64,000 nucleotides of DNA from the NCBI GenBank assembly GCA_964270895.1, contig OZ185443.1; one strand, 5' to 3'. The position numbers are program-made. Positions 40,177 to 46,100 of this stretch are shown piece by piece (the first letter of the stretch is position 1; every line of letters starts with the position of its first letter). Source of the DNA: Podarcis filfolensis (taxonomy: Eukaryota).

Positions 40177-43100
40177 ACACACACCTGAGCCCATTGCCTT
40201 TTTTCACTTTGTTTTAATTTCTATGCTTTCCCTTATTTCTCAAGTTGGATTCCAAAGCATCATCCCCTCCTCTCAGGTACCGATCCTCTCCTTGTCCAGA
40301 TTCTAATAAAGAGAATCTTCAGGCTGTCACCGATGAATGGTTGTCACTGACTCTTGCCGTCTCACCTTCAAGCACACCTTCCCCAACTCCTCCACCTTTT
40401 CCCAAACTCTTTCTTTCTGATTTAGAGGAGCTTGGCACTCTAGCTTTGACAGGTCCGCAGAGCGTGCTGGGGCATTCAGATAATATCACTCCTCAAGTAA
40501 AGCATGACCATTTTGTTCCAATTACCTCACCAAAGGCTTCCCACTCCTTCCCTGAATCTCCAACTTCACCTCAGCCATTTTCTTCATCTGCCTGTAAATC
40601 ACCTCCTCCAGCAACCTGGTTTCAGGACAGCGTGCGTAAGCCTGTTACCAATAGTGTAAATCTGAGCGAAAGTAAATGTAGCAATTTCAGAGAGCTGAGA
40701 GGAAGCCCCACCACCAAGGAAAGGAAAAATTTCTCACAAACAACTCCGGAAGTTCAAGGAATAGCAGGCCCTGCTCTTGTTCTCTCCAAAGAAGACCCAT
40801 TATTCAGAACCCTGACGGAGACTGACGAACCAGAAGAAGAAATCTGTGAAGAGCTGCTAGCGATAATCCAAGGGGGCCGGTCAAAATGTAAAGATTCAGG
40901 TTTCTACAGGCGTGCCCCTGATGTAACAGAACAACTGGCAAGGCTTCACATAGAGGAAGAGCTGAGCCATGACAATTTAGAGTCACTCATATCAGTTAAG
41001 AGAGAACCTATGATACCTTGCGAAGGGGACAGTTCACCAGATACTAAAAAAGAGGTATTTAAACTTCTTAAGATAAACTCCTACATTCTCATCATGAATT
41101 CAAGTCTTAACTTTCCGTTGTGTGTGTTTCTGCCTGCATGTGCCTTTCTAGTATAAACTGCAATATTTTGAGAACAGTAGAATGCACATTAACGCACAAG
41201 CCCTCTCTCCAGTTCTTTTATTTTGGAGATGGGAAGAAATGTCACACTGTAATTTAGTTTACCCTAACTGAATAAAGTCTTTCCTTCCTTCCTTCTGGAG
41301 CTAGCCGCCTTTAGTTGCGGCTGTCATCAGGAATGAAAAACCATTGGTTGCTTTGATGGGCACTAAGTAGTTTGGCACAACTCCTGGTCAAACTAGAAGA
41401 CATGCCAATGTGATCATACTTTCCTAGGGAGGAAGGAGTGTAAAATCTGTCACCCCCATGCAATTTCCCCAATACAAATGCTCCACCACCAGACCACAGC
41501 GGCCAATTTGCCCCAGAAGGGGAGATGCTATTTGTAGCTATACCATCTCTTCTCCTATGGCAAACAGAAACTTCTGGCTTTTAATAGATAATTAACACCT
41601 CTCCTTCTACACACGGCACTGATTCAAGTCGCACCACCGTGGGATGCTACTTATTCAGAGACACACACCTTTAACATGCCATCTAGTTTTGTCTCAAAAA
41701 CTTTACAGTAAGTCATTCAGGAAATGCCCATTTATTTATAGGTCACTCTCTTGTTCAGAAGTGACCAACATGTCCTCCGGATGTCATTGGCCTAAAATTC
41801 CTGACAGCCTCAGCAAGCATTGCCAGTAGTCAGGTAACAGTAATCCAACAGCATTTGGAAGGTACTGCATTGGCTACCCTGATCTAGTTAACTTGAACAA
41901 TTCCCCATAGGTTTCTGATATAAAGGAAGCATTACCCAGAATACCCATTAAAGTTAATGCTGTTTTATACTTTATAGCTACACATGGTGTGTATAACACT
42001 GAATTCCTTGAAATGTGAGCAAGCCACAAACAACTTCTGCTTACCCCACCACATGAAGGGTGAGGGTAGCCAGTTTACACAATCACTGAGCACAGAGCTT
42101 TGCTTGATAACAAAAAAAGAACCATCTAGCTTTAGAAACTGCCAACTGGCAGCGGTTGAGTCTGGCCCCAGCGCCATTCTAATTAGTCCCTGGTGGTTCT
42201 ACTGAATTTTAATCAAGTTGTCATAAAATGTTTCCCACAGTTTTACTCATAAGAAAAGGGGGGAGGATTTTTGGCTTGTAAGATTGTCTTCCGTCTAATG
42301 TTACATCTCTCTTAAGAATTTGTATGTAGCATCCCAGCTGTGGAACCAGCCATTTATAATGGCCTGCCCAGTGTTTGTTTTCCAGCATCACTGTGCACAC
42401 ACAGGCAGCAAAAACAGTGTGTCTGTTGTGGTCCCTGGTCACTTGCATTCCGCTTGAAGGGTTAGACTTGCTCCCAACTGTGTTAAAGCCTGAACCTGCA
42501 TGGAGTGATCAGTTTGCATGACAAAACATGCTTCAGGCCCTTTTCTGAGCAGCAGAATATGCCTTCACCACCTGAAAGAATACAAGCATTGGCTATCCTT
42601 GTCCAAGAGAGACAAGGGCTGCAATCCAGCAAAAATTTCCAGGCATACTTGTTAACTCTACATGCACAAGCCTTTTCTTTTCCTCCCTGACCTTCACTGT
42701 AGACTGCTTTCTAAATGTGGGAGCATTTAAGAAGCAGCTTGCTGCACTGTGAGGTGCAGGAGCAGGGACCCACTATGCCAGGAACAGGGAGCTGCTATTC
42801 AAGTAAGCAGATAGGAAACAGTCCTGCTGAGCACAGAGATCGATCCATGTATTTCCAATAATTGCATTGTCCTATATGTACTCAATTAACCCTACTGAAC
42901 ACAGCAATGGGTGGGAAGGTTGGGGGTGTCTCATTTCCTTTCACTGGTGGTGGTGCAGTATTCCTCTCTCTGCTTTATTGCTCCCTTTGTAATTGCTCTT
43001 CTGCTCAATTACTGTCTTTCTTTAAATGTTTAAGCCAGCTTCACTTCCCTATGAGACGCAAGCACCTTCCACCTCTCCTTCTTGCCTTGCTTCCAGTCCT

Positions 43101-46100
43101 CCATTTCACTCAGCCAAAACATCTTTCTCTGAATGCGTTTCTACATCTTCCAAGCCTGCTGTCACCCACTCACCCACTCTCCTTTCCAAACTGTCATACA
43201 GACAGGAGAAACATTCGCCAAAATTAAAGGTAACAACAATATCTGTTATAATATGAAATGCTGCATGCCTTCTCAAATGCCTGACATTCGGGAAGCCTGG
43301 AGGTTAACCTAATAATTTAAAATCAGATTTGATGGTGACTAACATTTAATGACATAAGCATGCAGTCAGATCAAAACGTTGTAGCACCAAGTATTTAAAT
43401 ATACACCATTCACCAAATACTCCAATCTTCAATACACTGGTGCAACTGAACAAAAGTTATGTCACTACTGAAATCAGTGCATCAAAATTAGGACATGCCA
43501 AACAATATATATATATAAATCAGCAGAGATAAAATTTTGGCACACAGAATCATTCATAGTCCTTACTTCCTACAATTTTTCTTGTATATGTCTAGATTTT
43601 GATTCCTCCTTAATACTACTAAGACATTTGCTATACAAATTTTTATCAGTAAGGACTTCATCCAAAGCCCTTCATCCAATCTGCTGGAAAATCACTATTG
43701 ACTTTTATGGTGTGGACTTTTATCTACTCAGCTGGTATAAACATAAATAACTCATTAAAATCCTGAACAAGCTACCTAGCATGCATATGTATTTCTTACT
43801 CTTATAGCAAGCATATTCATTCCTATTCTTGAGAGCCAAATTACACTTGCCTGCCTGGCTTCCCAGCCAGTTCTATGAGTACACAAAGCCAGGCTAGAAT
43901 TGAGACACCAGCATAGCTGGGATCCCCATACACATGACAACTTACTAACTAGGGAGAACCATGGTCTTGGAAGTCCCGATGGGAATGGACAAGTGGAAGA
44001 GGCTATCACAGGCCTCAGATACCTTGCCATTCCTACCAGCAAACAGATAATTAGACGACTCTCTTTTTGATAACACACCTAGTCTCATAGGAAGGGACTC
44101 AGGAGGCCCAGGGCTTCTTGCCAGGTTGGTGTTGTGTCTCATTATGGAGCACCTGGTTAGACTCGGCCTAGGTTGATACCACTTCCATATTGCTCAATTA
44201 TAAAGCATGCATAGCAACCCTTCTGAACTCACATACAGACACTTTAGATCAAAAGCATACCACACATCTGGAATCATGTGGGGGGAAGGTGTAGCCAATC
44301 TGAACTGAAATCTCATTATTCCCTTTCATTGAATTATGCTATTCCTACCAACACTGGTCAGCCACTCACAGTGGCACGGTCTATTCACAGATATCCAATC
44401 CACCATTGCAGGAATTCCTGCAACAGAATATTATTCATGCACTGCTTATGCTGCTACGAATCCAGTTAGCATTTTAGCCTGTTCTATCATTAGCAGGTAC
44501 TACAACTGAAACAAGAACTAGTGTAATGGCACTGAGAAATAATAAATCATTGCTTTTTGACTCAAAAAAAAATCGCTTTGTAAGAGTGCTTTTGAATTTT
44601 GCAGAAGGAATATGTGACCCACACTGTCTGCTTCAACACTTATTGGAATGTGCAAAGGCACTCTTAGAATCCTGTAATTGTTTTTTTTTCACACCCATCT
44701 TCTCAGTCAAGCTTTGGAATCTAATTTAAGGAGGCATCAGCTTCATCTCCCTTTCATATATCACTTCCTCTCTACTTATATTCACTCATGCAAAAGACAC
44801 ATTGAGATGCTTAGAATGCAGGTCAGATTTTCGCAATGAGCTCCTTTTAATCTCTCGAGAGTTATAATGCCTCAGCTACTAATATTTTCCTCCTGGCTAT
44901 GAGTGCTGTTTGCTTTTGAGGTTGCTCCACTATTAAACTTGAAAATGTACAGTGCTGCATTTTGTGATAGGATCTTCTGCCCCAGGTAGACTGGTAGGCA
45001 TTGCAATTTTTAAGTGCTTGAGGACGGGGGTGGGGTGGGGTGGGAGGAGTGTGGCATTAAGGAAAATGATCATCATAGCTTTGCGACACAGTGGATTAAC
45101 AGATGTGCATGTCTTTTTGCACAAGGGCATTTTGGAGATTTGAAAGCTGGTTTGTGCAGCTTGCAAGTGAGAATGATATGACAACAGTAAAATTGCCCGT
45201 CTAGACTTTTAGATGAATTGACCCCCATGTTTATGGTTTTTCCAGGCCGATTTAAAAAGAGAGATATTTGTCATCGGCAAACCTCCTCGTAGCCCTGTTA
45301 TGACAAGGAGATCTTGCAGCTCGCCAGTCAGAGGGCACAGCTATTTACATAGGGTATGGTACCATATGGCCCTGATATTGCCAGGTTTCCCCTAGCATAA
45401 GGAATTTGGTTTCTCATTGTGAAGTCTGGGGCTCACATGCTTAAGTAAATTCTCTTTAAAATGGAAAAAAAGCTTAAAATGGAAAATGGAAAAAATTCTC
45501 TTTGAAATGGAAAAAGCTTGAGTGATAAAAGTGTGGAGGCCACAGGAAGCTGTGCTTGATTTGGACCGTTCTGCTGGGGAATTGTAAATTGCAAGTATGT
45601 GTGAAACAGCCCTAAATAGAAGCAATTTCTCTAACCAATCTGTGTTTAACTCTCCCTTCCTTCTTAAGTAGTTCCTCTCATTTCTAAGTATCTTACTTAT
45701 GAGACCATTTGCAAAGGCTAAATAAGAAGACCTCATTCCTAATGTCTGTGTTGCTGTTCCTTGTTGTTTCCAAATGCATGATCGCACACACACACACCAA
45801 AATATTTTGCTGCTATGGCAACATATGTTGCACTCACTTGACGCCATGCCTTTTCATCGCACTGATTCTCTGAGCTGCCATCTGCATCAGCTTTTTCTTG
45901 CTTATTCACATTAAGCTGCATCCTCTATACAGTACAATCTCTTATTATAATTGTCCATACTCTGTCTTTGAAAGTAATGTGTGTGATTTCTGCATTTTAT
46001 GTACAAACCAAATGTTATACATATTTGAATCTAATCATTTTTGTATACATTACAAACTTCATTTATCTGAACTACAAGAGAAGGAGTCAGGGATGATCAT

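What the first reader, a model, noticed from the sequence alone, without database searches (positions are those of the whole stretch)
40245..45353. Three in-frame cassette exons (270+65+36 aa) between SH3-2 and SH3-3 of SORBS2
Seen: exons 40245-41054, 43035-43229 and 45246-45353 each have a pyrimidine-rich AG acceptor and GT donor, are phase 0-0 and are stop-free in the gene frame, so any subset can be included. Knowledge: the canonical mammalian ArgBP2 joins ...SSNK directly to PQRPVF. Inference: a modular, Ser/Pro-rich linker of up to 371 aa that changes SH3 spacing and adds phospho-sites, possibly poorly annotated.
Basis: partly seen in the sequence, partly recalled or inferred. Interest (0 to 1): 0.65.

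Follow-up and report, generated by a model that had tools for sequence, protein, structure and literature searches.

The report
Already-annotated alternative linker exons of lizard SORBS2
The three exons are real, optionally included coding exons of a lizard's SORBS2 adaptor gene that add a mostly floppy stretch of up to 371 residues between two SH3 domains, but public gene models already contain them, so the finding is ordinary.

Summary
Exons A (40245-41054, 270 aa), B (43035-43229, 65 aa) and C (45246-45353, 36 aa) are open, AG/GT-flanked and phase 0-0.

They are not new. The window is a lacertid lizard, not human.

Exon A occurs in models of 56 named species, from paddlefish and coelacanth to birds. 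No mammal was listed.

Among 148 retrieved models I counted A+B+C 80, A+B 29, A alone 31 and A+C 8. This supports optional use of B and C. Skipping of A could not be seen, because every search was anchored on A.

Exon A has no Pfam or PDB relative. AlphaFold models it as mostly disordered (mean pLDDT 52.5), with two short helices on conserved blocks.

Best reading: an ancient, alternatively spliced disordered linker carrying short conserved motifs. Function is inferred only. Six paper searches found no description of it.

The parts
36442..36645 (+). Constitutive exon holding the second half of SH3-2 and the start of the SH3-2/SH3-3 linker. It ends on a whole codon and has a strong donor (AAG|gtaagg).
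   Evidence: Pfam SH3_1 E 8e-7. 98.5-100% identical to Podarcis models, where it sits immediately before exon A. Splice sites.
40143..40184 (.). (TG)n(CA)n microsatellite 60-100 nt upstream of the exon A acceptor. Possibly a splicing-regulatory element; that reading is inference.
   Evidence: Read. 13 overlapping TGTGTG in the 300 nt upstream of exon A, against 0.33 per 300 nt window-wide.
40245..41054 (+). Exon A, 270 aa, phase 0-0. Mostly disordered, with conserved blocks at about residues 25-68, 90-98 and 196-238.
   Evidence: 268 of 270 residues identical to P. raffonei models. tblastn of P0011 residues 1514-1784. Alignments. AlphaFold.
41055..41156 (+). Read-through of the exon A donor: 33 further codons, then a stop codon. 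An AATAAA lies at 41271-41276. Possible alternative last exon giving a protein without SH3-3.
   Evidence: The read-through peptide resembles the C-terminal tail of the Varanus komodoensis models P0045 and P0046. 11 of 148 models have A but no PQRPVF exon after it.
43035..43229 (+). Exon B, 65 aa, phase 0-0, 48% Ser+Pro+Thr. Its C-terminal block is conserved.
   Evidence: 64 of 65 identical to P. raffonei. 64-71% to turtles and 46-51% to caecilian, newt and coelacanth.
45246..45353 (+). Exon C, 36 aa, phase 0-0, basic. The most conserved of the three. It holds two conserved Ser-Pro sites.
   Evidence: 36 of 36 identical to Podarcis models. 81-89% to songbirds and 71% to paddlefish.
47564..47613 (+). 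Constitutive 50-nt exon (PQRPVF...). It starts in phase 0 and is the junction partner for whichever of the SH3-2 exon, A, B or C precedes it.
   Evidence: 16 of 16 identical to lacertid models, directly after C, B or A.
51710..51853 (+). First part of SH3-3. Coordinates are the extent of the tblastn match, not exact exon ends.
   Evidence: Pfam SH3_9 E 9e-12 on the frame 51686-51883. tblastn of P0011 residues 1891-1938.
53064..53123 (+). End of SH3-3 and of the coding sequence. Coordinates are the extent of the tblastn match.
   Evidence: tblastn of P0011 residues 1938-1957, 100% identical.

Best explanation
These are three genuine, alternatively included coding exons of the SORBS2 (ArgBP2) gene of a lacertid lizard of or near the genus Podarcis.

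Shown:
- They sit in one reading phase between the exon that ends SH3-2 and the exon that begins PQRPVF.
- Public gene models include them in different combinations.
- Their sequence and position are conserved from ray-finned fish to birds.

Inferred mechanism:
- Inclusion lengthens the tether between SH3-2 and SH3-3 from about 50 to about 420 residues of mostly disordered chain.
- It adds short conserved motifs: two short helices and a proline-rich block in A, the tail of B, and a basic block with two Ser-Pro sites in C.
- These motifs most likely act as docking or phosphorylation sites.
- The longer tether should weaken the way SH3-2 and SH3-3 act together on one ligand.

Failure to splice at the exon A donor may in addition give a form that ends after A and lacks SH3-3.

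The confidence given is for the shown part (real, alternatively used SORBS2 exons). For the inferred mechanism I would say about 0.55.
For: Structure of the exons.

Gene identity:
- Exon A alone found 94 proteins. 91 are named SORBS2, one is a 'hypothetical protein' of Crotalus horridus, and two are unnamed.
- P. raffonei isoform X5 maps colinearly on the window from residue 535 to 1957.
- Pfam finds a Sorb domain and three SH3 domains in that protein, with the insert between SH3-2 and SH3-3.

Alternative use, counted in 148 models:
- A+B+C: 73, plus 7 with no PQRPVF exon after.
- A+B: 27, plus 2.
- A alone: 20, plus 11.
- A+C: 8.
- Within lacertids alone, A+B+C, A+B and A-only models all exist.

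Age: the exons are present in named squamates, turtles, birds, caecilian, salamanders, frogs, coelacanth and paddlefish, with a partial match in an eel.

Disorder and motifs:
- No Pfam family matches any of the three exons, and exon A has no PDB relative.
- AlphaFold with a 31-row alignment gives mean pLDDT 52.5 and pTM 0.17. Helices lie only at residues 26-33 and 202-208, and the best block is 201-210 at pLDDT 76.
- Invariant or nearly invariant columns cluster in the same blocks.

Relevance of spacing: in the paralogue ponsin/SORBS1, l-afadin bound a fragment holding SH3-2 plus SH3-3. In the blot overlay it bound neither domain alone; by affinity chromatography SH3-3 alone bound slightly (PMC2148189, passages read).
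Against: - No transcript data were available, so inclusion, skipping and tissue pattern in this animal rest on other groups' gene models. Those models may be partly computational.
- Skipping of exon A was not observed, because all database searches were anchored on A.
- The helices are short and mostly of low confidence: only 23 of 270 residues have pLDDT of 70 or more.
- No binding partner was tested.
- A strict 14-3-3-type pattern in exon C fits the window but only 5 of 19 aligned species, so I dropped that reading.
- Some 'A+C' frog models have an unmatched 45-residue gap where B should be, so they may really be A+B+C with a diverged B.
Confidence: 0.9

Rival explanations
1. Exon A also serves as an alternative last exon. 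The donor at 41055 is not used, translation runs 33 codons into the intron to a stop codon, and the transcript ends at the AATAAA at 41271. The resulting SORBS2 has SoHo, SH3-1, SH3-2 and the exon A segment but no SH3-3. This would coexist with the cassette reading rather than replace it.
For: - 11 of 148 models have exon A with no PQRPVF exon after it: Varanus, Pogona, Ahaetulla and Lonchura.
- The Varanus tail resembles the window's own read-through peptide.
- An AATAAA lies 115 nt after the read-through stop.
- The exon A donor (GAG|gtattt) looks weaker than its neighbours.
Against: - No such model appeared among the lacertid proteins retrieved.
- The Pogona and Ahaetulla tails do not resemble the window's read-through.
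- AATAAA is common in AT-rich introns.
- No 3'-end reads were available.
Confidence: 0.3
2. In this lizard the three exons are constitutive. They are always included together, and the subsets in public models are artefacts of automated model building.
For: A+B+C is the commonest pattern, in 80 of 148 models. All 7 P. raffonei models retrieved carry all three.
Against: - P. muralis and L. agilis have models with A+B and with A only.
- The same subsets recur independently in snakes, turtles, birds and frogs.
- The retrieval was biased towards models holding A, so models that skip it could not appear.
Confidence: 0.08
3. Exon A is a separate small gene nested in a SORBS2 intron, as it is filed in several bird genomes.
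For: Seven bird species carry a stand-alone 'uncharacterized protein' of 225-359 aa that matches the exon A region.
Against: - The window's exon A frame has no Met before residue 256 of 270.
- It is bounded by in-phase splice sites.
- In the models of the 48 named species it is spliced into SORBS2 at one fixed place.
Confidence: 0.02
4. Exons B and C are chance open frames picked up by the reader and by gene-prediction software.
For: Openness alone is weak evidence: 5% and 18% of random window positions are open over the same lengths.
Against: - Both align at the expected position in models from fish to birds. Identities reach 71% for B (turtle) and 89% for C (songbirds), with blastp E down to 1e-24 and 1e-19.
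- The boundaries are conserved.
Confidence: 0.02

Closest known systems
NCBI and UniProt gene models of SORBS2 in Podarcis raffonei, Podarcis muralis and Lacerta agilis (for example P. raffonei isoform X5, 1957 aa)
   Same: The same three exons, in the same order, with the same boundaries, between the same flanking exons. Identity to P. raffonei is 268/270, 64/65 and 36/36.
   Different: A handful of residue differences. The window is therefore a close relative or another individual, not necessarily the same assembly. The models are predictions, and I could not see their transcript support.
SORBS1 (CAP/ponsin), the paralogue, whose longest isoform has a linker of about 300 residues between SH3-2 and SH3-3
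   Same: An optional long stretch at the same place in the domain order. Ponsin has many splice variants, and in a blot overlay l-afadin bound a fragment with SH3-2 plus SH3-3 together but neither domain alone (PMC2148189, passages read).
   Different: The length and position of the SORBS1 linker are recalled from the UniProt entry, not from any call. Whether it is homologous to exons A-C was not tested, because no named SORBS1 protein came into the session.
The neural nArgBP2 exon of the same gene (window 28436-30220)
   Same: A large, tissue-restricted, mostly domain-free alternative exon of SORBS2. It is described as restricted to neuronal tissue and absent from heart (PMC9333371, passages read).
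   Different: It lies upstream of SH3-1, carries the zinc-finger segment, and has been studied. Exons A-C lie between SH3-2 and SH3-3, and I found no paper on them.
RAPGEF1 (C3G) exons 12-14
   Same: Neighbouring cassette exons, used in various combinations, that encode a serine-rich disordered segment. I saw only the abstract start in the search listing (bioRxiv 10.1101/2024.04.07.588436).
   Different: An unrelated gene. The likeness is of kind only.

Membership tests
SORBS2 (ArgBP2) gene | Sorbin-homology domain followed by three C-terminal SH3 domains | tested here: met
   Pfam SH3 on three window frames. The window is colinear with residues 535-1957 of P. raffonei SORBS2 X5. That protein has a Sorb domain at 515-559 and three SH3 domains. 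Only the tail of the Sorb domain lies inside the window.
SORBS2 (ArgBP2) gene | Closest named relatives are SORBS2 rather than SORBS1 or SORBS3 | tested here: met
   91 of 94 hits to exon A are named SORBS2. Among the 120 listed rows, one of three paddlefish rows from one contig is named 'SORBS1-like' and the other two 'SORBS2-like'.
Cassette (skipped) exon | AG acceptor, GT donor, and a length divisible by three in the gene's phase | tested here: met
   translations.
Cassette (skipped) exon | Isoforms both with and without the exon | tested here: inconclusive
   Met for B and C in gene models: A+B+C, A+B, A+C and A alone all occur. Not testable for A with my searches, which were all anchored on A. 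These are models, not transcripts.
Cassette (skipped) exon | Junction-spanning transcript reads | not testable with these tools
Disordered linker with short linear motifs | No globular domain: no family match, no solved relative, low predicted order | tested here: met
   0 Pfam families for A, B and C. 0 PDB matches for A at E up to 1. Mean pLDDT 52.5 and pTM 0.17.
Disordered linker with short linear motifs | Short conserved islands in otherwise fast-changing sequence | tested here: met
   Alignment of 22 named species. 10 invariant and 16 nearly invariant columns in a 31-row alignment, clustered at residues 15-68, 90-92 and 198-238 of exon A.
Disordered linker with short linear motifs | A partner that binds the motif, or a kinase that modifies it | not tested
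14-3-3 mode-1 site (R-S-x-S-x-P; pattern recalled) | The pattern is present and conserved | tested here: not met
   The pattern is present at residue 22 of the window's exon C. It holds in only 5 of the 19 aligned species that have exon C.
Stand-alone protein-coding gene (as filed in seven birds) | Own start codon at the head of the frame | tested here: not met
   The first Met of exon A is residue 256 of 270.

The most novel reading that the evidence does not exclude
The A-B-C module is an ancient part of SORBS2, at least as old as bony vertebrates, and mammals have lost it. On this reading, all functional work on ArgBP2, done in mammals, has missed a regulated linker. Its conserved acidic helix and Ser-Pro blocks would give the adaptor an extra docking surface and uncouple SH3-3 from SH3-1/2.

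The acidic helix resembles the LD motifs of focal-adhesion proteins; that likeness is recalled and not tested.

The evidence does not exclude this: no mammal appears in any list (0 of 94; 0 of the 120 rows shown; 0 of the 8 named rows). The searches were word-indexed, and 50 rows were not shown.
Probability: 0.2. Interest if true: 0.45.

Novelty: already known. Interest (0 to 1): 0.2.

Why it matters
As a genome-annotation finding it adds nothing, because the exons are already in public models of the same genus.

The remaining interest is modest. A 371-residue optional linker of a well-studied cytoskeletal adaptor is conserved for over 400 million years (age recalled) in 56 named species. It was not described in any paper my six searches reached, and it did not turn up in any mammal.

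If the module is truly missing from mammals, lizards, birds or frogs would be the place to learn what a long SH3-2/SH3-3 tether does. If it is present in mammals, it is an unstudied part of a gene linked to cardiomyopathy.

Tried and rejected
I did not use those proteins further, since some could be human.
- The ESM Atlas did not hold exon A. A named owl homologue gave no usable hit.
- Pfam found nothing for A, B or C, and the PDB nothing for A.
- A search aimed at mammalian fragments (caecilian insert region, proteins shorter than 716 aa) gave 12 hits: seven birds, one eel and four unnamed rows. None was a mammal.
- The 14-3-3 reading of exon C was dropped because the strict pattern holds in 5 of 19 species. 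My recollection that PMC3903627 reports 14-3-3 binding was wrong: the term occurs 0 times there.
- Counts of RBFOX, MBNL, PTB and QKI words in the 300 nt either side of each exon were near the window-wide rate. The exception is the TG repeat before exon A. Without orthologous introns these counts say little.
- Paper searches for the insert found no description of it. SORBS2 together with 'second and third SH3' gave 0 papers.
- The isoform figures of PMC9333371 are in supplements, which are closed. They might show whether mammalian heart isoforms carry such exons.
- I made and searched no joined (spliced) model of the window's exons.
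Full report
**What is in the sequence.**
- Exon A (40245-41054) translates without a stop into 270 residues, exon B (43035-43229) into 65 and exon C (45246-45353) into 36.
- Each follows a pyrimidine-rich tract ending in AG and is followed by GT. The lengths are 810, 195 and 108 nt.
- The upstream exon 36442-36645 carries the second half of an SH3 domain and ends on a whole codon. The downstream exon starts at 47564 with the codons for PQRPVF.
- Openness is far beyond chance only for A: 3.7e-8 from composition. Exon A's frame is one of only two frames of 270 aa or more in the whole window.
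- For B and C, 5% and 18% of random window positions are equally open. Their reality rests on conservation.

**What I did not do.** Only exon A went to the large databases by itself. B, C and the flanking exons were compared one by one, by local blastp, with the proteins those searches returned. The run of N at 13619-13766 was left untouched.

**Whose gene it is.**
- Exon A alone found 94 proteins. [quoted passage not shown]
- The best are Podarcis raffonei (99%), P. muralis (97%) and Lacerta agilis (96%).
- P. raffonei isoform X5 (1957 aa) maps colinearly on the window from residue 535 to its end. This includes the large neural exon at 28607-30214 (98%).
- Pfam finds a Sorb domain and three SH3 domains in that protein.
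- The window is therefore part of SORBS2 of a lacertid lizard of or near the genus Podarcis. It is not human.

**The exons are already annotated.**
- In all 7 P. raffonei models retrieved, the SH3-2 exon, A, B, C and the PQRPVF exon follow one another without a gap.
- The same holds for P. muralis and L. agilis, including UniProt entries derived from Ensembl.

**Alternative use.** I classified the 148 models retrieved.

| Pattern | Followed by the PQRPVF exon | No PQRPVF exon after |
|---|---|---|
| A+B+C | 73 | 7 |
| A+B | 27 | 2 |
| A alone | 20 | 11 |
| A+C | 8 | 0 |

- Within lacertids alone, A+B+C, A+B and A-only models exist.
- Three of the A+C rows are frogs with an unmatched gap of about 45 residues where B should be. 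They may really hold a diverged B.
- Every search was anchored on A, so models that skip A could not appear. Skipping of A is not shown here.
- These are gene models. I could not see the transcript evidence behind them.

**Age.**
- A turtle model's A+B region found 170 proteins, of which 120 were listed. These add tortoise, rhea, songbirds, newts, more frogs and the paddlefish.
- A caecilian model's insert region, searched among short proteins, found 12. Seven are birds in which exon A is filed as a separate 'uncharacterized protein'. One is an eel protein matching a quarter of the region. Four rows are unnamed.
- In all, 56 named species carry the exon A region.
- Exon C is the best kept: 81-89% identical between lizard and songbirds, and 71% to paddlefish. 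B is shorter in birds.
- No mammal appears in any list: 0 of 94, 0 of the 120 shown, and 0 of the 8 named rows.
- This absence is weak evidence. The searches need shared five-residue words, and 50 rows were not shown.
- The 25 unnamed representatives of the exhaustive search could not be named. I set them aside because some might be human.

**What the protein segment looks like.**
- None of the three exons matches a Pfam family, and exon A has no relative among solved structures.
- Ser+Pro+Thr make up 33%, 48% and 28% of A, B and C. A holds 14 Ser/Thr-Pro sites.
- I aligned 22 named species, with the window's exons added as separate fragments. Conserved islands stand out in variable sequence.
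- In A the islands are:
  - a block around EWLSLT followed by PTPPPFP and DLEEL;
  - a block HFVPITSPK;
  - an acidic block followed by CEELLSIIQG;
  - a block FYRRAPD...LYIEE.
- In B the conserved island is the tail, PPLLSK...RQE. In C it is GKPPRSPV followed by a basic stretch and a second Ser-Pro.
- A 31-row alignment gives 10 invariant and 16 nearly invariant columns in those same places.
- AlphaFold on that alignment gives mean pLDDT 52.5 and pTM 0.17. Helices lie only at 26-33 and 202-208, and the best ten-residue block, 201-210, reaches pLDDT 76.
- The segment is best described as a disordered tether carrying short motifs.

**How it most likely works.**
- Shown: the module is inserted, in frame and optionally, between SH3-2 and SH3-3.
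- Inferred: the tether grows from about 50 to about 420 residues.
- In the paralogue ponsin, l-afadin bound a fragment containing SH3-2 and SH3-3. In the blot overlay it bound neither domain alone; by affinity chromatography SH3-3 alone bound slightly (PMC2148189, passages read).
- A much longer tether should therefore lower the effective concentration of one domain near the other and change which ligands are held by both.
- Also inferred: the conserved helices and Ser-Pro blocks are docking or phosphorylation sites.
- A strict 14-3-3 pattern fits the window's exon C but only 5 of 19 species, so I do not claim it.
- The acidic helix reminds me of LD motifs of focal-adhesion proteins. That is a recollection and was not tested.

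**A second outcome.**
- If the exon A donor is not used, translation continues for 33 codons to a stop codon. An AATAAA follows at 41271.
- The Varanus komodoensis models end in a tail that resembles this read-through peptide. 11 of 148 models have A with no PQRPVF exon after it.
- Exon A may thus double as an alternative last exon, giving a protein without SH3-3. No lacertid model of this kind was retrieved.

**Literature.**
- Six full-text searches found no description of an insert between SH3-2 and SH3-3 of SORBS2.
- Passages read in PMC9333371 and PMC7660791 discuss heart and brain isoforms and the neural zinc-finger exon only.
- The exon maps of PMC9333371 are in supplements, which were closed.
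- That the longest SORBS1 isoform has a linker of about 300 residues at the same place is my recollection of its UniProt entry. Homology with exons A-C was not tested.

**Verdict.**
- The exons are already in public annotation, so the finding is ordinary.
- Two open questions remain: whether mammals have the module, and what it does. They are minor.

Noticed in passing
window 28436-30220 (+): A 594-codon open frame with a run of ten histidines. It matches residues 787-1319 of the P. raffonei model at 98%. This is the large neural (nArgBP2-type) alternative exon of SORBS2, which papers describe as restricted to neuronal tissue. Pfam found no family in it.
   Followed up: partly
window 41055-41276 (+): Read-through of the exon A donor gives 33 codons and a stop codon, with AATAAA at 41271. 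The peptide resembles the C-terminal tail of Varanus komodoensis SORBS2 models, hinting at a conserved alternative last exon without SH3-3.
   Followed up: partly
window 40143-40184: A (TG)n(CA)n microsatellite sits 60-100 nt upstream of the exon A acceptor. UG repeats near acceptors are known binding sites for splicing repressors (recalled). Its conservation could not be checked.
   Followed up: partly
proteins P0180-P0185 and P0188 (birds): In seven bird species the exon A region is filed as a separate 'uncharacterized protein' of 225-359 aa rather than as part of SORBS2. This is probably a misannotation of a long internal exon.
   Followed up: partly
proteins P0085-P0089, P0136, P0137, P0125, P0127: Newt, toad and rhea models end 9-38 residues after exon C or B, with no recognisable PQRPVF exon. 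This is either another alternative end or a diverged exon.
   Followed up: no
window 13619-13766: A run of 148 N inside an intron. It was left as it is.
   Followed up: no
window about 3198-3850, 37060-37400 and 50128-50700: Stop-free frames at these places translate into similar strings on both strands, suggesting copies of an interspersed repeat in the introns.
   Followed up: no
window about 61565-61620: A second dinucleotide repeat, read as CVCVCV in translation, lies downstream of the gene's last coding exon.
   Followed up: no
proteins P0132-P0134 (Polyodon spathula): Isoforms from one paddlefish contig are named 'SORBS1-like' in one row and 'SORBS2-like' in two others. The naming of the fish paralogues is inconsistent.
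   Followed up: no
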